Positions 7,756-63,780 of a stretch of DNA of 64,000 nt are shown here, one piece after another. The translations under genes were made by a program, and so were the position numbers. The stretch is from NCBI RefSeq assembly GCF_022045235.1, contig NW_027266319.1:26598001-26662000 (forward strand), read 5' to 3'. The number at the start of each line of letters is the position of its first letter. The stretch's first letter is position 1. The notes under the pieces were generated by a model. The model was not told the origin of the DNA and ran no database searches. It was given only the letters and a program-made list of their open reading frames with translations. The DNA comes from Haliotis cracherodii. Its lineage: Eukaryota.

Positions 7756-8795
7756 AGTGACAAGAATGATGTCCGATGCAATTCCCTAATTTGACTTGTA
7801 CCAAAAGTTCCCCTGGTTTTTCAGGTGAACAATTGACTTGCCGTTGCATGTGTTTGTGACGGGTGCCACAGGTGGGGCAGGATACGCTCACCTTCTCGCC
7901 ATCACATGGTATCATCACTGTTTGATAGTGATTCATAAACACATGCTAATGGTACAGTCGGAATCGTACAGTCGACTCTGCTTTTGGCAGAGATTTCTTA
8001 TGAATATGGAAAAGGTCACTTTTGTTTTATTGTCTAACGCCGCACTCGGCAACATTCCAGACATATGACGACAGTCTGTTAATAATCCAGTGATTGATGT
8101 TGTGAGGAACGATCCACGCCGCCCTGGGGTCCAAGTCTTACCTGGAATCTTCACGCGGAAAAATATTTTCAGGCCAAACATTGTCACGTAGAACCCAATA
8201 TTAGGTTGTTGTTGTTTAACGCCGCACTCCAATATTCCAACTATACTGAATCGCAAAAGAAACGTCACCCCAAGTAACATTGCATGAAAAGTTGTCATTT
8301 AAATATCTCGGTAATTTTTGTCAAAGTTTAACATTACCTTGTCCGGAAAAATGAAATTTGATGATAAAAAAACAAAGCAGATGACAATAAAACCGATAGC
8401 CCAAACGCATCACGGCAACGGCCATGGTAACCTCCGTGCAAATTGAAATACACATGCGTTCCCCCATTTCTTGCCCTATAAAAATCCACCCAGATCGGAT
8501 AACATTCATTCGTTATTGAATTGCTACTCCATGCCAAGATTGACAAGAAATCAGCGACAACGAAACGAAGTTTTTAAAAGTAATTAATAATGTACAGATG
8601 GTTTCATTAAATTCAACATTGCATAAATATTCAAATCTCTGTCAGTATGATTCAAAATGTTTGTTTATTGTTCAGGGCGCCTTCTACATTTTCAAAGGCG
8701 TGGTTTACTTTCGGGTCAGGGATTTTCTACGTGTTGTGTTTCTCGCGGCCAGACCCCTCGCATCGCCGGCAGCACATGCACAGCAGGATGATGAA

Positions 8796-9338
8796 CATCT
8801 TCCCGAGGCAAGAGAGTTAACTGACTTTAAAAGTCCAGTTTCCACCCTTGCCGAACTAGGCTGGAATTCCTGGGCTCGATCGTAGCGCCACCAGTGGCTA
8901 TTGCGAGTGATGTCCTTTCTATGCCTCTCCGATTGACCAATCAGATTCAACCTCTCGTATCACATGCATTTGCTTCAAACAAAACGGTGGCGCCCAGTCG
9001 AGACGATCTGATTGATAATCAAGATCTATATTGTGATAAAACGAGTCTTACATCGCGAAGTGCATCAAATCACGTGAGCACCTTGACTAAATGCATGAAA
9101 AGATTTAGAAAATATCTGTTGACAACGGGTTAGCGGTGCACATGTTTTGCAAATCCTGCAGTCGACCGAAATCTGCATGACACTTTACGAACCGGATTTC
9201 GATTTCAGTGCGCGATTTTGATTGGACTATGCATAGACTCGTTAGTCCAGCCAAAGTGTAACTCCATAATACCAGCCTGGTTCGGCAAGGGTGGAAACTG
9301 GACCTTAATAGTCAGTTAACTCTTGTCTCGGGAAGATG
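8796..9338. mobile_element. 543-bp MITE with terminal inverted repeats (TIRs) and a 9-bp TSD (Mutator-like by TSD length)
   Basis: Ends CATCTTCCCGAG / CTCGGGAAGATG with ~70-bp imperfect TIRs; TSD gatga(t/g)gaa at 8787-8795 and 9339-9347; empty site in the intact gene near 33570. Confidence 0.9.
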
Positions 9339-9384
9339 GATGAGGAACTGCAGGGCGCACATCCCGATCAGGCAGCCGACCATA

Positions 9385-10290
9385 GTCCAGAACACGTCAT
9401 GCCGTACCACTGAAACACAGAACACGTCATGCCGTACCACTGAAACACAGAACACGTCACACTAGTACACAACTGACACACAGAACACGTCATACTGATT
9501 CACCGCTGAAACACAGAAAACGTCATACTGATACACCACTGAAACACAGAACACGTCACACTGGTGCACTACTGAAACACAGAACACGTCACACTAGTAC
9601 ACAACTGACACACAGAACACGTCATACTGATTCACCGCTGAAACATAGAACACGTCATACTGATACACCACTGAAACACAGAACACGTCATACTGATTCA
9701 CCGCTGAAACATATAACACGTCACACTGATGCGCTACTGCAACACAGAACACGTCATACTCATTCACCGCTGAAACACAGAACACGTCATACTGATACAC
9801 CACTGAAATACAGAACACGTCATACTGATACACCACTAAAACACAGAACACGTCATCCTAATACACCACTGAAACACAGAACACGTCATACTGATACACC
9901 ACTGAAACACAGAACACGCCATACTGATACACCACTGAAACACAGAACACGCCATACTGATACACCACTGACACACAGAACACGCCATACTGATACACCA
10001 CTTAAACACAGGACACGTCATACTGATACACCACTTAAACACAGAACACGTCATACTGATACGCCACTGAAACACAGGACACGTCATACTGATACACCAC
10101 TGAAACACAGAACACGTCATACTGATACACCACTGGAACACAGAACACGTCATACTGATACACCACTGAAACACAGAACACGTCATACTGATACATCACT
10201 GAAACACAGAACACGTCATACTGATACACAACTGAAATACAGAACACGCCATGCTGATGCCCACTTTAAATCATAACACGCCATGCTGGT
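9385..10290 (-). repeat. 33-bp minisatellite (~27 units), pseudogene copy of the intron 2 array
   Basis: Unit ctgaaacacagaacacgtcatactgatacacca is the reverse complement of the 31640-33525 unit. Confidence 0.95.
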
Positions 10291-10732
10291 TCCCCACTGA
10301 ATCTATCCCTGAATAATACGTAAAGGTTTGCTTCGCATACCAGAGCAGTACCGAAGGTCAAATTCGAGTTTAATAACAGCATATTTCAGAATTCGGGACA
10401 ATAATAAAGAATGTTCTCAAAAACTTTAAAAAATGAGTTTGTGCTTAGACACTGTGGAAGTTTGGACTTAAGGCAACATCAGGGCAAGAACTTCTTAGTC
10501 TTATGTTAAAAGTGAGCTGATTCATCTGGTAGGGACGTGATCTGAACTTACTTAGGTTGGATTTTGTCTTGTCTGCTTCATTGTTTTTGTCTGATCCACC
10601 TGTCTTTGGCTCATATATCACTTCCGGACCAAATCCCGAGCATCGAGGCCAGTTCTTTGGCTGAGCAGGGTGTTTGTTCTGAGCCTCGTTGATCATCATC
10701 GCCATCCCGTCAGCGTTGTGCATCTCAATGTG

Positions 10733-14038: not shown

Positions 14039-14284
14039 GATAATGTTTCCTGTTAAGGCGACTTTTAGGTACAGACCCTTATGAGGTTGTCAAGCAGCCG
14101 GTAATAGAATCTATACCGGAATTCATCCTTACAGTAAATAAAGAAGTTGTTATCCATAAATTGTCAGCTAAGTATAGGTCCACTCATTTTGGACCAGCAC
14201 TTTTGTCAATCACCTAAACATTACTTGCCCATATTAATGGGCCTGTTATGAGCAAACATAACCCTGATACTAGTACTATTCTCA

Positions 14285-16000
14285 GGTGAAATGTCTGGTG
14301 AACTCACGGGTGAAATGTCTGGTGAAAAGTCAGGTGAGATGTCTGGCGAAATGTCCGGTGAGATACATTAGGTGAAATATCCGGTGAGATGTCTGGTGAG
14401 GTATCCGGTGAGTTTTCTGAGGAGGTATTTGGTGAGATGTCTGGTGAAATGTCTGGTGAGATGTCTGGTGAGATGTCCGGTTAAATGTCTGGTGAGATGT
14501 CCGGTTAAATGTCTGGTGAAATGTCCGATGAAATGTCTGGTGAAATGTCCGGTTAAACGTCTGGTGAGATGTCCGGTTAAATGTCTGGTGAAATGTCCGG
14601 TGAGATGTCCAGTGAAATGTCCGGTGAAATGTCCGGTGAGATGTCTGGTGAAATGTCTGGTGAAATGTCCGGTGAAATGTCCGATGAGATGCCCGGTGAA
14701 ATGTCCGGTGAGATGTCTGGTGAAATGTCTGGTGAGATGTCCGGTGAGATGTCCTGTGAGTTGTCTGGTGAAATGTCTGGTGAAATGTACGGTGAGATGT
14801 CTGGTGAGATGTCCGGTTAAATGTCTGGTGAAATGTCCGATGAAATGTCTGGTGAAATGTCCGGTTAAATGTCCGGTGAGATGTCTGGTGAAATGTCTGG
14901 TGAAATGTCTGGTGAAATGTCTGGTGAAATGTCCGGTGAAATGTCCGGTGAGATGTCTGGTGAAATGTCTGGTGAAATGTCCGGTGAAATATCCGATGAG
15001 ATGCCCGGTGAAATGTCTGGTGAAATGTCCGGTGAGATGTCCGGTGAGATGTCCGGTGAAATGTCCGGTGAAATGTCCGGTGAGATGTCCGGTGAAATGT
15101 CCGGTGAGTTTTCTGGTGAAATGTACGGTGAGATGTCTGGTGAAATGTCCTGTGAGATGTCTGGTGAAATGTCCGCTGAAATGTCCGATGAGATGTCTGG
15201 TGAAATGTCTGGTGAAATGTCCGGTGAAATGTCCGATGAGATGTCCGGTGAGATGTCTGGTGAAATGTCTGGTGAAATGTCTGGTGAAATGTCTGGTGAG
15301 ATGTCTGGTGAGATGTCCGGTTAAATGTCTGGTGAGATGTCCGGTTAAATGTCTGGTGAAATGTCTGGTGAAATGTCCGGTTAAACGTCTGGTGAGATGT
15401 CCGGTTAAATGTCTGGTGAAATGTCCGGTGAGATGTCCAGTGAAATGTCCGGTGAAATGTCCGGTGAGATGTCTGGTGAAATGTCTGGTGAAATGTCTGG
15501 TGAAATGTCCGATGAGATGCCCGGTGAAATGTCCGGTGAGATGTCTGGTGAAATGTCTGGTGAAATGTCCGGTGAAATGTCCGGTGAGATGTCCGGTGAA
15601 ATGTCCGGTGAGATGTCTGGTGAAATGTACGGTGAGATGTCTGGTGAAATGTCCTGTGAGATGTCTGGTGAAATGTCCGCTGAAATGTCCGATGAGATGT
15701 TTGGTGAAATGTCTGGTGAAATGTCTGGTGAAATGTCCTATGAGATGTCCGTTGAGATGTCTGGTGAAATGTCTGGTGAAATGTCTGGTGAGATGTTTGA
15801 TGAGATGTCCGGTGAGATGTCCGGTGAAATGTTTGGTGAGATGTTTGATGAGATGTCCGCTGAGATGTCTGGTGAGATGTCCGGTGAGTTGTCTGGTGAG
15901 ATGTCCTGTGAGTTGTCTGGTGAAATGTCCAATGAGATGTCTGGTGAAATGTCCGGAGAGATGTCTGGTGAAATGTCTGGTGAAATGTCCGGTGAAATAT
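14285..16000. repeat. 12-bp minisatellite (GGTGARATGTCY)n, ~140 units, with internal block duplication
   Basis: Directly visible; the same variant series recurs at 14581 and 15409 (828 bp = 69 units). Confidence 0.97.
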
Positions 16001-16224
16001 GAGGTGACCTTATAGGGCGAAAATAGCGTTACGACTGTCGCAAGTCAATATGCAAGTGATTTTGTTATTATGACATTGATAGCGTCCAGAATGTGTTGAA
16101 AGGGTTCCCTTTCAGAAGCGATATATACTAAAACACTGTTTGTGGTCGTAGCACAAAGCTTGCGAAAGATACATTCATAGCTCTGGCGTTGCATTTAGAC
16201 ACAATAGTCGCTTTAAGTTGCGTA

Positions 16225-17989: not shown

Positions 17990-18996
17990 TCTGATGGCAC
18001 ACAAGTTTAGTAGCGTGTATGGCCACCATGTGCGTTGACGACTGCTACACAACGCCTCCGCATGGACCTTGTGATGCTTGTGAACACATGATTGGGAAGA
18101 CAACGCCATTATGCTGCAAAATGGTGCCAAGATCTTGCAAATTCCTTGGTTGGTTCTGGAGAGTGCGCAGACTTCGGCCAAGAGTATCCCAGACGTGTTC
18201 GATGGGATGGAGGTCGGAAGACCTCGACGGCCAGTCCATGACTTTGACTCCCGCATTCTGAAGGAAATTCCTTGTCAAAATTGCTGTGTGGGTACTGGCA
18301 TTGTCATGTTGGAAGATTAAACCGGGTCCACGTGCTGCCATAAAAGGCAGAAGTTCTGGTCCCAGTACCTGGTCGCGGTAAGCAGCAGCGTTGAGGTTGC
18401 CACGGATGACAAGAAGCCTGGAACGTGCATTGCCACAGAAAGCACCCCACACCATGACACTTCCGCCTCGAAATATGTCAACTTCCTGTACACAACACTG
18501 GGCGTAATGTTCATGACGGCGCCTACACACCCTCGCCCTACCATCAGCAAATCGAAGTTTAAGTCGGGATTCATCACTAAAGACGATTTGATTCCAATTC
18601 CTCTGAGTCCATCGTAAGTGTCGCTGTGCCCACAATTGACGTTAAAGTCTGTGTAATTGAGTCAGAATCGGCCCGCAGTATGGCCGTCGTGCTTGAAGGT
18701 GAGCAGTTCTCAGACAGTTTCGAACAGTTTGCGCACTCAGTCTGTTAATGACTGCTAACAAGTATGGCTGAAAACACGTGCGGTATTATGGCCACGTGAC
18801 CAGTTGCACGTGAAAAACCACTTTTGCCACTATAGTGCTGTGCACATGATTTTGATCGATTCACCTGCAAAAAACGGGTGTTATCTGAAGACAATACGTG
18901 GCCATTACTGTTTAAATACACAATAAGGGCCCACAATGATAACTGGTCAAAATGTTAAAATTTTAGGATTGTGAACTTTTTAATTTAGTTCAGTAT
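17990..18996 (-). mobile_element. Tc1 (DD34E) transposon remnant
   Basis: ORF 18045-18635: IVFSDES, GGSVMVWG, FQHDNA-x-WPSRSSDLHPIEHVW with D-34-E spacing; TIR-like end tatactgaac at 18996; internal deletion. Confidence 0.9.
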
Positions 18997-19099: not shown

Positions 19100-19920
19100 G
19101 GTGAAGATCAGCTACCATCAATAACGCGAATGTCCCCCGTTGAAATCGATAGCTGCCTGCCATCTCATGCCATTGGAAGAGGCGAGTATGCGAATCATAT
19201 CCTGGGGAATGGTAGCCCACTCGGTCTGCAACGCAAAAGTCAACTGCTGCAACTGGGGTTGTGGTTGACGTCGGCGTAGCCGTCTATCCAATTCATCCCA
19301 CAGGTGCTCTATCGGGATCAAATCCGGGGATCTGGAGGGCCAGGGGAGAACATCACGTTGTTGTTGTGTAGACAGGCTCTTGTGATCCGTGCTGTATGTG
19401 GTCGAGCGTTGTCCTGCTGGAATACACCGTTGCCGTTGGCTGCAATTTGGAGGACGTGTAGTAGGAGAATTTTGTTGATGCATCATTGAGCCGTAAGATT
19501 GCCCTGGATATGGACCAAACCTATCCTGCCATGATGAGAGATCCACTTCATAACGCAGTATCCGGCGTAACATTTCCCCCGACGTCTGTAGACTCGTGCT
19601 CTTCCATCCCCTCGATGGAGGAGAAATCTTGATTCGTTGCTGAACCAGACATCTCTCCATCGCGATTGAGGTCACTGCCTGTGTTGAAGACACCAATGCA
19701 GTCGTTGTTGACAGTGGTGTCGACTCAATATGACACGTCGAAGAGGACGTCTTGCTCGTAGACCTGCTGCTCTTAAACGGTTCCGTACGGTCTGGTCGGA
19801 GATTCTGCGCAGTCCGGGTATTTTGGGTGCGGTTGAGGTGGCTGTGGTCGTTCTTTCACGTAGGTGGCGCAGTCGGATGTAGCCATCTTGGGCGGGGATA
19901 GTTAATCTTGGTCGTTACAC
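19100..19920 (-). mobile_element. Second Tc1 transposase remnant, frameshifted
   Basis: LPWPSRSPDLIPIEHLWDELDRR...WATIPQDMIRIL...GGHSRY; upstream TVRNRLRAAGLRARRP segment. Confidence 0.88.
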
Positions 19921-27324: not shown

Positions 27325-27344
27325 ATGAGGCTAGCCTTGATTAG
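27325..27344 (+). CDS. Multicopper oxidase coding exon 1 (MRLALIR, phase-2 junction)
   Basis: ATG...ATTAG|GTAAGG donor; joins in frame to acceptor tttgcag|G-ATG at 29379; conserved with a synonymous change at 51030-51049. Confidence 0.7.
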
Positions 27345-27944
27345 GTAAGGCGTTATTCATATTTTATGACTCTCCACTTTATATTAAAATATCATGAAAC
27401 TATTATCACGGGTGTGACACGCTATGCATGTCTGTTAAATGTCTGAACTCTCAAAAGAGATTATATAAGTTGAAAAGATGCCCAATTTATACATGTCAAG
27501 TGTTGTTCGTGACCGTGTATAATTTTCTATTTCCTGTCGGCAAATGTCAGAGGACTCACTGCCAATTTCATCTCAGCGAAACTAAGCGGATTAAATTAGA
27601 CATAATCACTTTTAAATGTCAGCGTTCGTTACCGTGTACAGATCAGGTCTCCCCATGTTCAATCTAGCACCCCATGTAACGATGCAAGACTCACACGTTT
27701 AAATCTAATCACAGGTTCATCATGGGTATGTGGTCGGCATTTCGATTTGTCATAAATAGCTCTACACCTTAGACACTATTAAACAGAACCGACCAAATGT
27801 CAATTTTCCTAGTCACCATTAACTTAGCTTGGTTTACTCGTATGTTTTTATGTTAATATTGTACCATGTTCTTTGTAAGTCCTGGCCGTACAATGTAAAA
27901 TATCCCAAATTTAATGTGAAACACCTGAAAAATCGTTATTTTAC

Positions 27945-28560
27945 TTGACGTTTCACCTGACATTTCACTTCACGTTTCACCTTACATTTAACCTACCATT
28001 TCACCAGACATTTCACCCGAAATTTCGCAAGACTTTTCATCTGACATTTTACCAGACATTTTACCTGACATTTCACCTGATATTTCACCTGAAATTTCAC
28101 CCGAAATTTCGCAAGATTTTTCACCTGACTTTTCATATGACATTTCACCTGATATTTCACCTGACATTTTACATGAATTTTCTCCAGATATTTCACTTGA
28201 CGTTTAACCTTAAATTTCACCTGAAAATTCACCAGATATTTCACTTAACGATTCACCTAACAATTCACCAGATATTTCACCCGACATTTCAGCAGACATT
28301 TTACATGACATTTCCCAATATATTTCACCAGATTTTTTACCTGACATTTCACCAGACCTTCACCTAACATTTCACCAGATATTTCACCTAACAACTTCAC
28401 CAGACATTTCACTTGACATTTTACTTGAAATTTCACAAGTTATTTCAACTAACATTTCAGCAGACATTTCCCCAGAAGTTCTCCTGACATTTCACCTGAA
28501 ATTTCTCCAGACATTTCACCAGATATTTCACCTAACATTCCATCTGACATTTCACCATTA
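27945..28560. repeat. 12-bp minisatellite (AGACATTTCACC)n, degenerate, in intron 1
   Basis: Reverse complement of the 14285-16000 unit. Confidence 0.92.
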
Positions 28561-29378: not shown

Positions 29379-31345
29379 GATGAGGTGTGTCCGAGCAGTC
29401 ACGTGTCTTCTGCTGTCAATCATTTCAGCGAGGGGCGTGGTTTCAGAATGCCTGATGACAGATGACGAGTGCGTATTTCACCTCACCATTAAACACCGCC
29501 TGACCATGATGAAAGACAACATGGCTGTTTTCCCTTCTGGTCGGAAATTGTATAAGTATGACGTCACTAACACGTCAGAAGCAACCCCTATGACACCGGA
29601 TGGAATAATCCAAGCCGACGGCTATGAGCCACAGCGCTTGGTCACAGTTGCTAACGGCACCATGCCTGGACCCGCCATTGTCGTCTATGAAGATCAAACG
29701 GTCATTGTCCATGTTAAAAATGAGCTTTATAACGAGGGCGTATCAATGCATTGGCACGGTCTTCATCAAAAAGGCACCCCGTTTATGGACGGAGTATCGT
29801 TCATTACCCAGTGTCCAATTCTTCCGGGTCAGTCGTTCACCTACAAGTTCAAGGCTAAACCCAAGGGCACCTTCTGGTATCATTCTCACAATGCCAATCA
29901 GAGGACCATGGGCCTTCAAGGTCCGCTGATTATCAAAGAGAAGAAAGCATCGACGATGGATGAAATGATAATGGTGCTACAAGACTGGAACCACGACGAC
30001 TCAACGACCGTGCACTTAAAGATGGATTTCGGTGGATTCGAGGAACGAAAACCTCTTAATACAACAGATGCTCTCGATGGCTCCCATTTCAGCCGGTATT
30101 TCATGACAAGTGGTCTTATCAACGGCAAGGGCCGTCTCTATGATAAGTTCGGGCGTCATAATGACGCACCGCTATCTATTTTCACAGTGAGACCAAATCA
30201 ACTGTACAGGTTCCGGGTCATCGCCGCTGGCCACCTCTACCCATTCCGGGTGTCCGTGCACGGTCACGAACTGACCATTGTGGCGTCCGACGGGTATGAC
30301 CTGCGTCCAGAAGTCGCAGAGTCCTTCATCATCAACCCTGGTGAGAGAATCGACTTCATCCTTAACACCACGAACGTAGTGGACAACTACTGGATTCGGG
30401 CACAGACTCTCGAGGAAGGTGTGGACCACAAAGCTGAAGCCATCCTCAGATACGAAGGAGCGCCTGATGCAGAACCAACTTCATTCAGGAGAACATGCTC
30501 GGAAGCTGATCCGTGTCGCGTCATCAACAGCCCTTTCACTTACTACCCAATAGTTAACACTGAAACAGTCAGGTTCGACCAACTCAAATCTTTGTCTAAT
30601 GATGACCCTGCTCCTCCGGTGACCTCTGGGAAGTTCAAAGAACACTTCCTCAACTTTGCTTTCCCCGGCTATACACATTACCCAGGTCAAGTCAATGGAC
30701 ATAAATTCAAGATGCCTCATGTCGCGGGTCTGACCCAAATGAATGAGATTGATACATCATGCGACAAAGTAGACTGCGGGTTTAACAAGACCTGTCACTG
30801 TACATACACCCTCAACCTTACGTACGGAGACACTGTTCAGATGGTCTTTCTCAACATGGGCAACGGGAAGGGTTGGTCTCATCCGATTCATCTCCACGGC
30901 CATTCCTTCTACGTGCTTAAGATGGGCTATGCCATACAAAATAGCTCCACTTATCAAATCGAAGGAAGTAACATGGACATAAGCTGTAACGGGGATCCTT
31001 TTTGTAATGCTCCTACATTTGAAAACTCATCGTGGACGGGGGATAACATACCTGGCCTGGAGCTGAAGAACCCACCGCGGAAGGATACCATTATAGTGCC
31101 AACTGGTGGTTATGTGGTTGTGAGAATCCGCGCTGACAACCCTGGGCTGTGGTTCATGCATTGCCACATTGAGATGCACAACGCTGACGGGATGGCGATG
31201 ATGATCAACGAGGCTCAGGACAAACATCCTGCTCCGCCAAAGAACTGGCCCCGATGCTCGGGATTTGGTCCGGAAGTGATATATGAGCCAAAGACAGATG
31301 GATCAGACAAAAACAATGAAGCAGACAAGACAAAATCCAACCTAA
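29379..31345 (+). CDS. Laccase-like multicopper oxidase, main exon (signal peptide plus three cupredoxin domains)
   Basis: Uninterrupted ORF with all four copper motifs: HWHG, WYHSH, HPIHLHGH, WFMHCHIEMHNADGM (Met as T1 axial ligand); signal peptide MRCVRAVTCLLLSIISARGVVS; donor CTAA|GTAAGT at 31346. Confidence 0.96.
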
Positions 31346-31639
31346 GTAAGTTCAGATCACGTCCCTACCAGATGAATCAGCTCACTTTTAACATAAGACT
31401 AAGAAGTTCTTGCCCTGATGTTGCCTTAAGTCCAAACTTCCACAGTGTCTAAGCACAAACTCATTTTTTAAAGTTTTTGAGAATATTGTTTATTATTGTC
31501 CCGAATTCTGAAATATGCTGTTATTAAACTAGAATTTGACCTTCGGTACTGCTCTGGTATGCGAAGCAAACCTTTACGTATTATTCAGGGATAGATTCAG
31601 TGGGGAACCAGCATGGCGTGTTATGATTTAAATTGAGCA

Positions 31640-33525
31640 TCAGCATATCGTGTTCTGTATTTCAGTGGTGTATCAGTATGACGTGTTCTGTGTTTCAGTG
31701 GTGTATCCGCGTGGCGTTTTCTGTGTTCCAGTGGTGTATCAGTATAACGTGTTCTGTGTTTCAGTGATGCAGTATGGCGTGTTCTGTATTTCAGTGATAC
31801 AGTATGACAAGTTCTGTGTTTCAGTGGTACAGTATGACGTGTTCTGTGTTTCAGTGGTGTATCAGTATGACGTATTCTGTGTTTCAGTGGTGTATCAGTA
31901 TGACGTGTTCTGTGTTGCAGTCGTGTAACAGCGTGGCGTTTTCGATGTTTCAGTGGTGTATCAGTATGACGTGTTCTGTGTTTCAGTGGTGTATCAGCGT
32001 GGCGTTTTCGATGTTTCAGTGGTGTATCAGTATGACGTGTTCTATGTTTCAGTGGTGTATCAGTATGACGTGTTCTGTGTTTCAGTGGTGTATCAGTATG
32101 ACGTATTCTGTGTTTCAGTGGTGTATCAGTATGACGTTTTCTGTGTTTCAGTGGTGTATCAGTATGACGTGTTCTGTGTTTCAGTGGTGTATCAGCGTGG
32201 CGTTTTCGATGTTTCAGTAGTGTATCAGTATGACGTGTTCTATGTTTCAGTGGTGTATCAGTATGACGTGTTCTGTGTTTCAGTGGTGTATCAGTATGAC
32301 GTATTCTGTGTTTCAGTGGTGTATCAGTATGACGTGTTCTGTGTTGCAGTCGTGTAACAGCGTGGCGTTTTCTGTGTTTCAGTGGTGTATCAGTATGACG
32401 TATTCTGTGTTTCAGTGGTGTATCAGTATGACGTGTTCTGTGTTGCAGTCGTGTAACAGCGTGGCGTTTTCGATGTTTCAGTGGTGTATCAGTATGACGT
32501 GTTCTGTGTTTCAGTGGTGTATCAGCGTGGCGTTTTCGATGTTTCAGTGATGTATCAGTATGACGTGTTCTATGTTTCAGTGGTGTATCAGTATGACGTG
32601 TTCTGTGTTTCAGTGGTGTATCAGTATGACGTATTCTGTGTTTCAGTGGTGTATCAGTATGACGTGTTCTGTGTTTCAGTGGTGTATCAGTATGACGTGT
32701 TCTGTGTTTCAGTGGTGTATCAGCGTGGCGTTTTCGATGTTTCAGTGGTGTATCAGTATGACGTGTTCTATGTTTCAGTGGTGTATCAGTATGACGTGTT
32801 CTGTGTTTCAGTGGTGTATCAGTATGACGTATTCTGTGTTTCAGTGGTGTATCAGTATGACGTGTTCTGTGTTTCAGTGGTGTATCAGCGAGGCGTTTTC
32901 TGTGTTTCAGTGGTGTATCAGTATGACGTGTTCTGTGTTGCAGTCGTGTAACAGTATGACGTGTTCTGTGTTTCAGTGGTGTATCAGTATGACGTGTTCT
33001 GTGTTTCAGTGGTGTATCAGTATGACGTGTTCTGTGTTTCTGTGGTGTATCAGTATGACGTGTTCTGTGTTTCAGTGGTGTATCAGTATGACGTGTTCTG
33101 TGTTGCAGTCGTGTAACAGTATGACGTGTTCTGTGTTTCAGTGGTGTATCAGTATGACGTGTTCTGTGTTTCAGTCGTGTAACAGTATGACGTGTTTGAG
33201 TTTCAGTGGTGTATCAGTCAGACGTGTTCTGTGTTTCAGTGATGTATCAGTATGACGTATTCTATGTTTCAGTGGTGTATCAGTATGACGTGTTCTGTGT
33301 TTCAGTGGTGTATCAGTATGACGTGTTCTGTGTTTCAGTGGTGTATCAGTATGACGTGTTCTGTGTTTCAGCGGTGAATCAGTATGACGTGTTCTGTGTT
33401 TCAGTGGTGTATCAGTATGACGTGTTCTGTGTTTCAGTGGTGTATCAGTATGACGTGTTCTGTGTTTCTGTGGTGTATCAACATGTCATATTCTATGTTT
33501 CAGTGGTACAGCATGACGTGTTCTG
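31640..33525 (+). repeat. 33-bp minisatellite (~56 units) filling intron 2; each unit is a splice acceptor plus the exon 3 start
   Basis: Unit tggtgtatcagtatgacgtgttctgtgtttcag compared with the real junction ttctatgtttcag|tggtacagcatgacgtgttctgg; 528-bp (16-unit) block repeated at 31921 and 32449. Confidence 0.96.
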
Positions 33526-33709
33526 GACTGTGGTTGGCTGCCTGATCGGGGTGTGCGCCCTGCAGTTCCTCATCCTGCTGTGCATGTGCTGCCGGCGATG
33601 CGAGGGGTCGGGCCGGGAGAAATACAGCATGGACAACACCCCTGACCCCAAAGTAAACCACGCCTTTGATAATATAGAGGGCGACCTGAACAGTAAACAA
33701 AAATTTTGA
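33504..33709 (+). CDS. Multicopper oxidase terminal exon: transmembrane helix and cytoplasmic tail
   Basis: Phase-1 junction A|TG gives MVQHDVFWTVVGCLIGVCALQFLILLCMCCRRCEG...NHAFDN...QKF*; hydrophobic span followed by Cys cluster and RR; total spliced CDS 2193 nt = 730 aa. Confidence 0.85.
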
Positions 33710-34084
33710 TTCATATTGACAGAGATTTGAATATTTATGCAATGTTGAATTTAATGAAACCATCTGTACATTATTAATTAATTTTAAAAACTTTTTAAGA
33801 AATCATTGACGAATCAACGACATTATCATATTGGTCAGTCGGGAGTTAATCAAGGACCAGTACTGTGCATGGAGGCTAAATGTCACTGGTGTGGCGGCAT
33901 TGGCTGTGTGAAAACCTGCAATTAGTTTGTTGATTGGGATCAGTTGATCAAAGATTTGATGTAAGTGGCCATTTCCTTCCGTATTATTGCAATTATTTTT
34001 AATATTCGAATGTAATATTAATTGTTGTTGACTCTAGCTACATGCAGTAAAACTGCTGCTCTAAGGAGGGTCCACATAAACTTA

Positions 34085-34172
34085 AGGGGCATTCACACAG
34101 TACAACTAGTTGTATACAATTTGTTGCATGCAACAAATTGTATACAACTAGTTGTACCGTGTGAATGCCCCT
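34085..34172. mobile_element. 88-bp fully palindromic MITE (PIF/Harbinger-like)
   Basis: AGGGGCATTCACAC...GTGTGAATGCCCCT, one mismatch, no loop, TTA on both sides. Confidence 0.8.
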
Positions 34173-34906
34173 TTAGATGGAAAACTCCAACATTCTGCCA
34201 CTTGAATCTCTATCACACGATGTGCGTACTGTAAAATTGGTCAAGCCGTGTTCACGTGTCTGGAATAGTGGAGTGAGTCATTGCAGTAGAACAGAAGACG
34301 AGCGTGTGGATCAATCAATCCATCGTCAGTACTTCACGGTATACACTTGATCATGAGCCAATACACATACGGCCTGGTTCTTGAGAGAGGGATACCTGAG
34401 TGTGGCCAATCGGCGCTCAGATTACACCGGCATTATTATATTGTGCCGCAGTCATCTACTCCACACATTGTTTCAATATCAGGCTATGGTAGGGCTCGCT
34501 CACAGTTCGTGCACGGAGTATCGCTCAATTGACTTTTGTGAGTTATACAAGACCACGTTTCACGAGCTGACTCAATACAGACACGCGCATTGCAGTCGTG
34601 TGTATTCACGGCTGATGGAGTTCTGACTTCCTTGGTCCTTGTGCACTTTGTATATTTACCTGTATAAAAATCACTTATTTTTTTATAAAACCATTTTACA
34701 GAACACATGATTCCTGTTTGTGATTTACCCAAGGAAGACATTAACTGTTGTTATGGCAACGCCCTTATATTATCTCGACTATGTGCTTCAGTGGTTAGCC
34801 CGATGCTCCACTGTAACTTGTTTGTACGAAGGGAACGGATGGCAGAGTTGTGTCCCTTGTATGCGAATAGTTGCGCCCTTTAGCTTGATGGGTCACTAAA
34901 CATTGG

Positions 34907-37836: not shown

Positions 37837-38910
37837 ATCGGTATGTTGCAAATGGGAGCGACGCAGGAGCACGTTGCCAGGATCATGGGCTGCTTCAATT
37901 GCACCATCGCCAGACTTGTCACACGTCACAGACAAACTGACAGTACTAGACAGGCCGGGGAGTGAAAGACCCTAGGTCACGATTCCACAGGAAGACCGGT
38001 ATTTACGGGTGCTTCATCTAAGGTCCAGATTCCTAACTGTGACGTCATCATCCGCAAACAGCCTTGGACATCCAGTCAGCAGAAGGACCGTTGCTAGACG
38101 ACACCGCCTGTATGGTCTCCGTGCATATCGACCTTTCAAGGGTATGACGTTAACGTTTCTACACCGACGTCACAGATTGAGATGGGACAGGACTGTACAG
38201 CAGTGGCAGCAGAGACTTTGGCGAAGAGTGCTCTTCAGCGACGAGAGTAGCTGCCATCTCTTCAAGTCTGATGGACGGGTTCGAATCTACTAACTACGTG
38301 GAGAACGGACGGCACGTTGTTGCGTCCAAGAAGTGGAGCCTTATGGAGGTGGTAGTGTCATGGTCCGGGTGGAATCTGCGGGGGCCAGAAGACAGATCTG
38401 GTCATCATCAACGGAAATATCACTGCACGTCGTTACATTGATGAGGTTTTGCGTCTGTGTTACTGCCTTTCCTGCAACGACACCCACGGACGCTGTTCAG
38501 CAGGACAGCGCCTTTCTGAACGCCAACAACGTCAACGTATTACAGTAGCCTGCCAGATCACCGGACCTATCGCCCACAGAGCACCTCTGGAACCAACTTG
38601 GACGCAGGATTCGGAAAAGTCAACAGGCGCCATTGACGAGGGATGTCTTGGCAATTGCCCTACAGGAAGAGTGGCGTGGGATCCCTAATCAGGATTTAAG
38701 GAGACTCGTGTACTCAGTTCGACGTCGTATTTAGGCCTGCATCGTTGCTGGAGAGGGGCACATCCGGTACTGAGCCATGTGTGTAGCATGGCTCTTTAAA
38801 ATACATCGACGTCGATTCTACGGGTGTGATCGAATACTGGACAGTGCACCCAGCATGAAAAACGTGTCTGCAGAACTTTAAGTACATGTTTTTTTTGCTC
38901 GGGATAGATA
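37837..38910 (+). mobile_element. Tc1 transposon remnant, heavily frameshifted
   Basis: WRRVLFSDES...DGRVRIY, YGGGSVMV, PARSPDLSPTEHLWNQL, GEGHIRY*. Confidence 0.88.
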
Positions 38911-51029: not shown

Positions 51030-51049
51030 ATGAGGCTAGCCTTGATAAG
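51030..51049 (+). CDS. Exon 1 (MRLALIR) of a second multicopper oxidase paralog whose main exon would lie beyond the window
   Basis: ATGAGGCTAGCCTTGATAAG|GTAAGG; intron homology continues 51050-51540 and resumes at 63415-63990. Confidence 0.6.
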
Positions 51050-62289: not shown

Positions 62290-63414
62290 TGTCACGACTG
62301 TCGTAACTCACGTGTCTTAATGCACCCTTTGTGCTACGACTGTCGTAACTCACGTGTTTTTTTATGCAATTTTAGTGCTACGACGTTCGTGACTCCTGTG
62401 TCTTAATGCAACGTCAGTGCTACGAGTAAATCAGTCTTTTATTGTATCGCATTTCTGAAACCGTCCAACACATATACACAGCCTGAGCGCTATCAATGTC
62501 GTAAAAACAAAATTAATTGCATAAAGACTTGCAACACTGTGGTCGCCCAACAACTTCTCTCAGCCCTACGCCAGACCGACAACTTGCGTAATGTCGTGAG
62601 CTGCACTTATTCTCCCCCTCTCATGAGACAGGCGTTCTATTTTCAAGCATATTTGAAAAGAATTTGAACACTTGAAACATTATTTGATTTGTCTCTACAG
62701 CGTTTCCAGCATTCAATAAACTGGAAGGTTTGATACCGACTGTGAAAATATAAAAAAGTAAGCTTGAATACCCTCCATTGACACGATATGAGTAATTGAT
62801 TTCTAACTACACCTAAATGCCGAGGGTGGACAAAATGCATTTACAAAACGATCTGATATCAAGTCTTGCATAAAATGAACTTCAAATGTCTTTATGCGGG
62901 GTATTAGGAGTGTACCAACACAACATAACCATGCAGTGTCCCACGCCCCAGTTTGTATGGGGAACGTGCACGACACAACGCAAGCTGGGAGTGAGATATG
63001 TCGGGTGGCAGATCATTGTTAAGTTGAATCTGTGCATACAACTTTTCGACAGGCCGTAATATTTGAAAGCAGAAACTAACTCCGTTTAATTCATTGTGAA
63101 TTGAATATTGTAAATCTGGAATAATTTACGAGCATGTTTTTTTTACGTTCAAGGAAAACTGACACACATTTAAAACAGTTTCATGTCGCTGATATATTTG
63201 CTTTCCAAAAGGAACTGTGAGACATATAATTTGATAACTGAATGAATAAATAAAAACCGTAATCAAGTAATTGTCATTATTGGTACAGCATGCAATGCTA
63301 CGAAGGCAGTTTCTATCATGATGATACAATATGTCACTCAAGACGATGGTTTTGTAACTGGGCCAATAGCCTATGTTACGTGACAATTTAACACATTTGA
63401 GAATAAGTATTCCT

Positions 63415-63780
63415 TTTACCTGACATTTCACCTGACATTTTACCTGACATCTCACCTGACATTTTACCTGACATTTCACCAGACATCTCACCGGACTTTT
63501 AACCTGACATTTAACATGGCAATTCATCAGATAATTCACCAGACATTTCACCAGATATTTCACCTGACATTTCACCAGACATTTTACTAGACATCTCACC
63601 TGACATTTTACCTGACATTTCACCAGACATTTCACCCGACATTTCACCTGACATTTTACATGACAATTCACCAGATAATTCCTCCAACATTTCAACAGAC
63701 ATTTCACCTGGCATTTCACCAGACATTTCACCGAACATTTCACCGGACATTTCATCGGACATTTCATCGGACATTTCACC
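63415..63780. repeat. 12-bp minisatellite at the position paralogous to 27945-28560
   Basis: Same unit, followed by the same unique flank (ccattacttgacatagtctg...) as 28555-28760. Confidence 0.93.

What the first reader, a model, noticed from the sequence alone, without database searches (positions are those of the whole stretch)
33449..33503. The repeat unit just before the true acceptor has lost both AGs, forming an AG-free zone
Seen: typical units carry two AGs (TATCAG and TTTCAG), but here they read TTTCTG and TATCAA, leaving 53 nt with no AG before the acceptor at 33502-33503. In the pseudogene copy the equivalent units (~9385-9445) keep their AGs. Known: 3' splice sites generally need an AG-free stretch after the branch point. 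Inference: this marks 33504 as the preferred acceptor among many decoys. It could be selected edits or ancestral intron sequence from which the array grew.
Basis: partly seen in the sequence, partly recalled or inferred. Interest (0 to 1): 0.7.

Follow-up and report, generated by a model that had tools for sequence, protein, structure and literature searches.

The report
Fossil acceptor edge in laccase minisatellite
An abalone laccase gene has about 57 tandem copies of its own splice signal in one intron, and the AG-free stretch next to the real signal is likely an old leftover repeat unit rather than what picks the splice site, because a sister gene carries the same stretch one unit further upstream and its transcripts still join at the last signal.

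Summary
The 53-nt AG-free run (33449-33501) is real and sits at the acceptor more often than unit shuffling gives (245 of 192,998). It ends a 57-unit minisatellite built from the intron-end/exon-start junction of an abalone membrane-anchored laccase: a 'mirage', known from amphioxus and noted by this scan in several other genes of this genome. The claim that the run marks the preferred acceptor is contradicted by paralogs. Copy 2, 35 kb downstream, has the same run followed by one extra unit, and a spliced contig carrying copy-2 letters joins the last AG, not the AG after the run. Copy 3 has the same variant unit type 600-720 nt upstream of its acceptor and keeps both AGs in its last unit. AG positions are not depleted in the arrays. 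The pseudogene's last unit lacks the inner AG. The run is likely an old edge unit that escaped homogenisation; exon-side definition likely picks the last AG. It may still serve a branch point at 33453 in this copy (untested; no transcript of this copy was seen). Low interest.

The parts
27325..27344 (+). Short first coding exon of laccase copy 1 (inferred; MRLALI plus two bases, then GT)
   Evidence: matches the N-terminus of homologs P0001/P0125
29379..31345 (+). Large coding exon of a three-domain multicopper oxidase (laccase-like), copy 1
   Evidence: Pfam Cu-oxidase_3, Cu-oxidase, Cu-oxidase_2; 0 mismatches to P0123; spliced contigs end at 31345
31346..33503 (+). Phase-1 intron, 2158 nt, GT..AG
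31634..33525 (+). Minisatellite ('mirage') of 57 units, mostly 33 nt, each = exon-start-like part + branch-point-like TGAC + pyrimidine/GT tract + CAG; runs into the first ~22 nt of the exon; 54 decoy unit-end AGs upstream of the last one
33449..33501 (+). The 53-nt AG-free run (the finding)
33449..33454 (+). Branch-point-like TATGAC (A at 33453, -51) at the 5' end of the run; candidate only
   Evidence: sequence; not mapped
33465..33470 (+). Unit end TTTCTG (decoy AG lost)
   Evidence: same change in copy 2 unit 62 and in unit 33010-33042
33471..33503 (+). Last unit, an old variant type (four shared changes incl. loss of the inner AG and of the branch-point-like A), ending in the acceptor AG 33502-33503
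   Evidence: same type in copy 2 (one unit upstream of its acceptor) and three times at the 5' edge of copy 3's array
33504..33709 (+). Last coding exon: predicted transmembrane helix, Cys cluster, short tail, stop
   Evidence: translation; identical to the end of P0123; no Pfam hit
8655..10732 (-). Truncated pseudogene copy: last 60 codons of the large exon, intron with 27-unit array, last exon split by a ~540-nt insertion and carrying a stop
9410..9441 (-). Pseudogene last unit (30 nt, inner AG absent) and the decoy AG before it
51030..51049 (+). Short first coding exon of paralog copy 2 (inferred); its large exon, array and last exon lie just beyond the window (L013)

Best explanation
The AG-free run is a pair of diverged edge units of a splice-junction minisatellite in an abalone laccase intron, likely an old intron end that escaped repeat homogenisation, and the spliceosome likely picks the last AG because it borders the full exon, not because of this run. 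Shown: the array unit is a copy of the intron-end/exon-start junction; the last unit is a variant type shared with two paralogs, where it lies 30 nt and 600-720 nt upstream of the last AG; spliced contigs of four organisms enter the exon at the last AG. Inferred: junction-spanning duplications (helped by the 8-nt likeness between exon +15..+22 and the unit's -16..-9) add units on either side of the old end, so the working acceptor moves downstream and the old AG-poor end is stranded; cross-exon definition (exonic enhancers plus the downstream donor or 3'-end signals) favours the AG nearest the intact exon, since decoys carry only 14-22 nt of exon.
For: Copy 2 (true paralog: 44 differences in 1989 nt of exon, unlike flanks) has the same two-unit run, then an AG, then a 30-nt unit, then the exon. 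The X1 junction contig carries copy 2's private letter at 31313 and its 30-nt loose end equals copy 2's exon start (L013:5000-5029), not the unit after the run; X2 (same organism code) holds 297 nt identical to copy 2's exon end and UTR, and its exon cover begins at about L013:5000 (20 of 25 nt of that bin). 41 of 61 copy-2 decoys share 16 or more upstream nt with the used acceptor, three share 22. AG-free run before the last AG: 53, 28, 28, 20 nt in copies 1, 2, pseudogene, 3. The variant unit type occurs 5 times in 124 kb: once each in copies 1 and 2, three times at copy 3's 5' edge inside AG-free runs of 91 and 47 nt far from its acceptor. 163 of 168 unit rows keep the end AG; AG positions change less than others (mean 4.0 vs 8.2 units per position in 137 33-nt units). 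Junction contigs in 4 of 4 runs enter the full exon. Database models of all three intact copies use the last AG. Literature: mirage boundaries escape homogenisation and mirages do not disturb splicing (PMC3087553 passages); exon-centric proximity with long introns in human (PMC9225289 passages).
Against: The run sits exactly at this copy's acceptor more often than chance (p 0.001-0.02). Old units have lost AGs by four separate changes among 14 (p 0.08). The last unit here lacks the usual branch-point-like A, so the -51 site may be used and would need the run. No transcript of copy 1 itself was seen. The X1 individual could carry a copy-2 allele without the extra unit. Contigs drop rare isoforms. 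In human data the exon-centric effect at 3' sites only weakens an upstream preference overall (PMC9225289 passages); no mollusc test exists in what I read. Exon definition itself was not tested here.
Confidence: 0.65

Rival explanations
1. In this copy the run is a working AG-exclusion zone kept by selection: the last unit lost its own branch-point-like A, so the branch point at 33453 (-51) would be used and scanning would reach 33502 only because both AGs between were lost.
For: The candidate A lies at the 5' end of the run, as described for distant branch points (PMC1431707 passages); position of the run is non-random; the pair is kept in copies 1 and 2; 4 of 14 changes in old units hit AGs (p 0.08).
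Against: It would explain why that AG is reached, not why 54 decoys are skipped, since each decoy is AG-free from its own -18 A to its AG. In copy 2 the same run points to an AG that the junction contig does not use. Other A candidates lie at -16, -23, -24. 53 nt is far below the 100-150 nt cut-offs used for distant branch points in PMC1431707.
Confidence: 0.2
2. Decoys are used at some level and the array tunes the protein: near decoys would add 10-11 hydrophobic residues per unit between enzyme and membrane helix, far decoys would stop early and give a soluble enzyme.
For: Units are 33 or 30 nt and in frame; 8 of 54 decoys in copy 1, 3 of 61 in copy 2 and 18 of 18 in copy 3 are open to the membrane exon; both AG losses are synonymous in that frame.
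Against: 4 of 4 junction contigs and all 13 Haliotis database proteins examined use the last AG; arrays of copies 1 and 2 carry many in-frame stops and one frameshift; the other changes in the last unit are non-synonymous.
Confidence: 0.08
3. Decoys are actively silenced (UG-binding proteins or RNA structure) or their products are degraded, so only the last AG is seen.
For: Units are UG-rich; many far decoys lead to early stops. Repression by UG-binding proteins is recalled, not tested.
Against: The used acceptor of copy 2 has the same UG-rich tract as its decoys; the region folds no better than shuffles (z +1.93); decay cannot remove the in-frame decoy products.
Confidence: 0.07

Closest known systems
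Amphioxus 'mirage' minisatellites (Adh3, globins BflGb6/BflGb9, troponin C, PGBD5); PMC3087553 and PMC3902484, passages read; the original Adh3 paper was not seen
   Same: Tandem copies of intron 3' end plus exon 5' start (as BflGb6); many units keep splice signals; normal splicing; copy number differs between copies; boundary units escape homogenisation.
   Different: Gastropod; 20-63 units of 30/33 nt in four paralogs; units in frame with the exon; paralogs place the same old AG-poor unit at 0, 1 and about 20 units from the last AG.
Human F7 intron 7 37-bp VNTR (PMC1557585, abstract and outline read)
   Same: Identical pseudo-sites from a VNTR spanning an exon boundary stay silent; the site bordering the real exon wins.
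   Different: Donor side, with a tested scanning model; here acceptor side, mechanism untested.
AG exclusion zones and distant branch points (PMC1431707, passages read)
   Same: AG-free run before an acceptor with a candidate branch point at its 5' end.
   Different: 53 nt is short of the 100-150 nt classes; no long pyrimidine tract; the run does not predict the used AG in copy 2.
Variable internal tandem repeats at exon-intron boundaries in human segmental duplications (PMC2812944, passages read)
   Same: Repeat number differs between recent paralogs at an exon boundary.
   Different: There many cases have transcripts that keep repeats; none was seen here.

Membership tests
Mirage minisatellite | Tandem units span an intron-exon boundary of the host gene | tested here: met
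   Unit = exon-start-like 14-17 nt + last 16 nt of intron; array runs into the exon
Mirage minisatellite | Many units keep splice signals | tested here: met
   163 of 168 unit rows keep the end AG
Mirage minisatellite | Normal splicing at the authentic site | tested here: met
   4 of 4 junction contigs enter the full exon; for copy 1 itself only a database model
Mirage minisatellite | Length instability and diverged boundary units | tested here: inconclusive
   57, 63, 27, 20 units in four paralogs and diverged edges; alleles and somatic variation not testable
AG exclusion zone with distant branch point | No AG between the 3' splice site and an upstream branch point | tested here: met
   53 nt free of AG; candidate A at 33453
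AG exclusion zone with distant branch point | Branch point mapped near the 5' end of the zone | not testable with these tools
   needs lariat sequencing
AG exclusion zone with distant branch point | First AG after the zone is the one used | tested here: not met
   Not met in copy 2 (the individual's allele is assumed to match the assembly); unseen for copy 1
AG exclusion zone with distant branch point | Unusually long zone (100 nt or more in PMC1431707) | tested here: not met
   53 nt
Laccase-like multicopper oxidase | Three cupredoxin domains | tested here: met
   PF07732, PF00394, PF07731; 96% to P0001

The most novel reading that the evidence does not exclude
An acceptor ratchet: junction-spanning duplications keep handing the working 3' splice site to the newest, exon-adjacent unit, stranding older AG-purged acceptors at graded distances (0, 30 and 600-720 nt in three paralogs) and swapping repeat-unit variants into the first codons of the membrane exon (VQH, VQY, VRH, VYQH in Haliotis paralogs mirror unit types); in copy 3 the whole array stays open in frame as a latent, length-variable stalk.
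Probability: 0.15. Interest if true: 0.5.

Novelty: new member of a known kind. Interest (0 to 1): 0.2.

Why it matters
As a claim about selected AG removal it fails its main test, and mirage arrays are known and common in this genome. What remains is a tidy natural series: four paralogs with the same old AG-poor unit at different distances from the exon, and dozens of decoys identical to the used acceptor. It is a ready minigene set for asking whether position next to the exon or local signals choose a 3' splice site in a mollusc, the acceptor-side counterpart of the F7 VNTR work.

Tried and rejected
No RNA holder listed on record: all runs used are 'RNA?' guesses or '?'; I treat junction contigs as spliced because they join the two exons. 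One search was swamped by a high-copy repeat in copy 2's 3' region (L013:5430-5600), so joints and loose ends at the acceptor were not shown; X2 had no cover at L013:4945-4994 and X16 none before 4995, which is only absence of cover. X19/X21 piled many contigs on the units (depth up to 2086 and 768 against about 5-30 on the exon), including the variant type in X19 (22.8 of 49.9 depth at 4947), but their place in the intron could not be told, so the ortholog test of the last unit failed. No contig with copy-1 letters was laid, which is no evidence of silence. Metagenome scan for a 22-nt exon motif: 0 matches. Haplotype-duplication artefact for copies 1/2 rejected: flanks unlike. RNA structure masking not supported. 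Recursive splicing rejected: units have no AG-GT, and re-splicing at the GT two bases in would leave two extra bases, which the junctions lack. General purge of decoy AGs rejected. Three distant laccase paralogs showed no related last exon or array within 10 kb. Paper searches listed nothing on this abalone array; searches gave background. Nearby earlier notes: none.

Full report
Setting. The window is G000:C56:26598001-26662000. The finding lies in an intron of a three-domain multicopper oxidase, 96% identical to P0001, named laccase-5-like of Haliotis rufescens by its source; database protein P0123, labelled Haliotis cracherodii, equals the window's large exon with 0 mismatches and continues with the exon at 33504. 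The large exon ends at 31345, the intron is 2158 nt, and the last coding exon (33504-33709) encodes a predicted membrane helix and tail.

Observation. AGs lie at 33447-48 and 33502-03 with 53 nt between. This is the longest AG-free run of the intron. The array has 57 units; 2 lack the inner AG and 2 the end AG. Shuffling unit order gives such a run before the last AG in 245 of 192,998 valid shuffles; conditioning on the 1 and 6 changes in the last two units gives about 0.02. So the placement is more than random unit order, less striking once edge divergence is allowed for. The statement on the pseudogene is half right: the decoy AG is kept, the inner AG of the last unit is absent, run 28 nt.

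What the array is. Each unit is exon-start-like sequence followed by a TGAC motif (A at -18), a pyrimidine/GT tract and CAG, that is a copy of the junction; exon +15..+22 equals the first 8 nt of the unit's last 16, a likely seed for slippage (inferred). This matches the amphioxus 'mirages' (PMC3087553 passages; PMC3902484 passage). Every consensus decoy is already AG-free from its -18 A to its AG; the inner AG lies upstream of that A. An AG-free run therefore cannot by itself tell the real site from decoys.

Paralogs. A DNA search of the genome gave 72 matches, all in four loci within 70 kb (counts are lower bounds): this gene (copy 1), the pseudogene, copy 2 (+, 35 kb downstream, 44 differences in 1989 nt, unlike flanks) and copy 3 (-, 79% in the large exon). 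Copy 2 has the same two-unit AG-free run, closed by an AG, then one more 30-nt unit, then the exon. Copy 3 keeps both AGs in its last unit (run 20 nt), and carries the same variant unit type three times at the 5' edge of its array, within AG-free runs of 91 and 47 nt closing 622 and 573 nt before its last AG. The variant type is defined by four shared changes, one being the inner AG loss, so that loss is older than, and not tied to, the present acceptor. Across arrays 163 of 168 unit rows keep the end AG (one copy-2 row is a microsatellite edge), and in 137 33-nt units (31 rows of other length or over 9 differences dropped) AG positions changed in 4.0 units on average against 8.2 for other positions: no general purge.

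Transcripts. Four runs guessed to be RNA, from four organism codes, each gave a contig that ends at the donor (31345; 31339 in X10) and continues into the full membrane exon. X1 shows copy 2's letter at 10 of the 12 copy-1/copy-2 differences in the stretch laid; nine of these are shared with the other organisms, but the one at 31313 is private to copy 2 and lies on the junction contig, whose 30-nt loose end equals L013:5000-5029 and differs from copy 1's exon start at two places. X2 holds 297 nt identical to copy 2's exon end and UTR, and its exon cover starts at about L013:5000. If that individual's allele matches the assembly, the AG directly after the AG-free run is skipped, along with 60 other decoys, 41 of 61 sharing 16 or more upstream nt with the used site. 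Limits: contigs drop rare forms; no contig with copy-1 letters was laid; the intron ends of the other organisms were not recovered. Database models of copies 1, 2 and 3 (P0123, P0125, P0128) and ten other Haliotis proteins all enter at the last AG; these are models, not direct evidence.

How it likely works. The run is an old intron end at the array boundary; boundary units escaping homogenisation is described for mirages. New junction-spanning units were added upstream (copies 1, 2) or downstream (one in copy 2, about twenty in copy 3), and the AG bordering the intact exon is used. Cross-exon definition is the most likely selector (inferred): decoys carry only 14-22 nt of exon, and in human data splice sites closest across the exon are favoured with long introns, although at 3' sites the effect only weakens an overall upstream preference (PMC9225289 passages). 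The donor-side analog F7 also uses the site bordering the real exon (abstract). Confidence 0.65.

In copy 1 the last unit has lost the -18 A, a TGAC with A at 33453 sits at the 5' end of the run, as for distant branch points (PMC1431707 passages), and old units lost AGs by 4 of 14 distinct changes (p 0.08, hand count). The run may thus be needed in this copy to reach 33502 (0.2), without being what excludes decoys. Structure masking is unsupported (z +1.93). Decoys are in frame: 8 of 54, 3 of 61 and 18 of 18 are open to the membrane exon in copies 1, 2, 3; no use was seen.

Novelty. Searches listed no paper on this array; the class is known, and earlier unchecked notes of this scan report several such arrays in this genome and others, found after I had reached the mirage reading. 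Supplements were not read. Verdict: real feature, ordinary class, main inference contradicted; interest 0.2.

Noticed in passing
window 33515-33624 vs copy 3 (L014): The membrane exon is 106 of 110 nt identical between copies 1 and 3 although their large exons are 79% alike: likely gene conversion or exon exchange near the array.
   Followed up: partly
first codons of the membrane exon, P0001-P0004 and P0121-P0129: Exon starts vary (VRH, VQH, VQY, VYQH, VYHH, DLF for DVF) in the same ways as array units; VRHDVF and VQYDVF occur in 4 and 10 units.
   Followed up: partly
L014, copy 3 array: All 18 decoys are in frame and open to the membrane exon, with no stop over about 600 nt.
   Followed up: partly
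33469 and 33481: Both AG losses are synonymous in the exon's frame (Ser, Gln); other changes in that unit are not, so probably chance.
   Followed up: partly
L013 about 6570 (70570 in extended window numbering): Model P0125 of copy 2 splices from a weak donor inside the membrane exon to a further exon with another tail; X2's contig reads through to the normal stop.
   Followed up: partly
27938-28556, 63414-63780, 14282-16007: A 12-nt satellite lies upstream of the large exon in copies 1 and 2 and, inverted, beyond the pseudogene.
   Followed up: no
L013:5430-5600: Very high-copy SINE-like repeat just after copy 2's stop, covered by X2's transcript contig up to 5455.
   Followed up: no
34081-34176: 96-nt near-perfect palindrome after the last exon.
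   Followed up: no
18045-18641 (-), 19118-19855 (-), 37976-38688 (+): Frames that resemble Tc1/mariner transposase fragments (resemblance recalled, not tested).
   Followed up: no
L017, about 450-5900 nt before the window start: A further, 44% identical laccase paralog in the same cluster.
   Followed up: no
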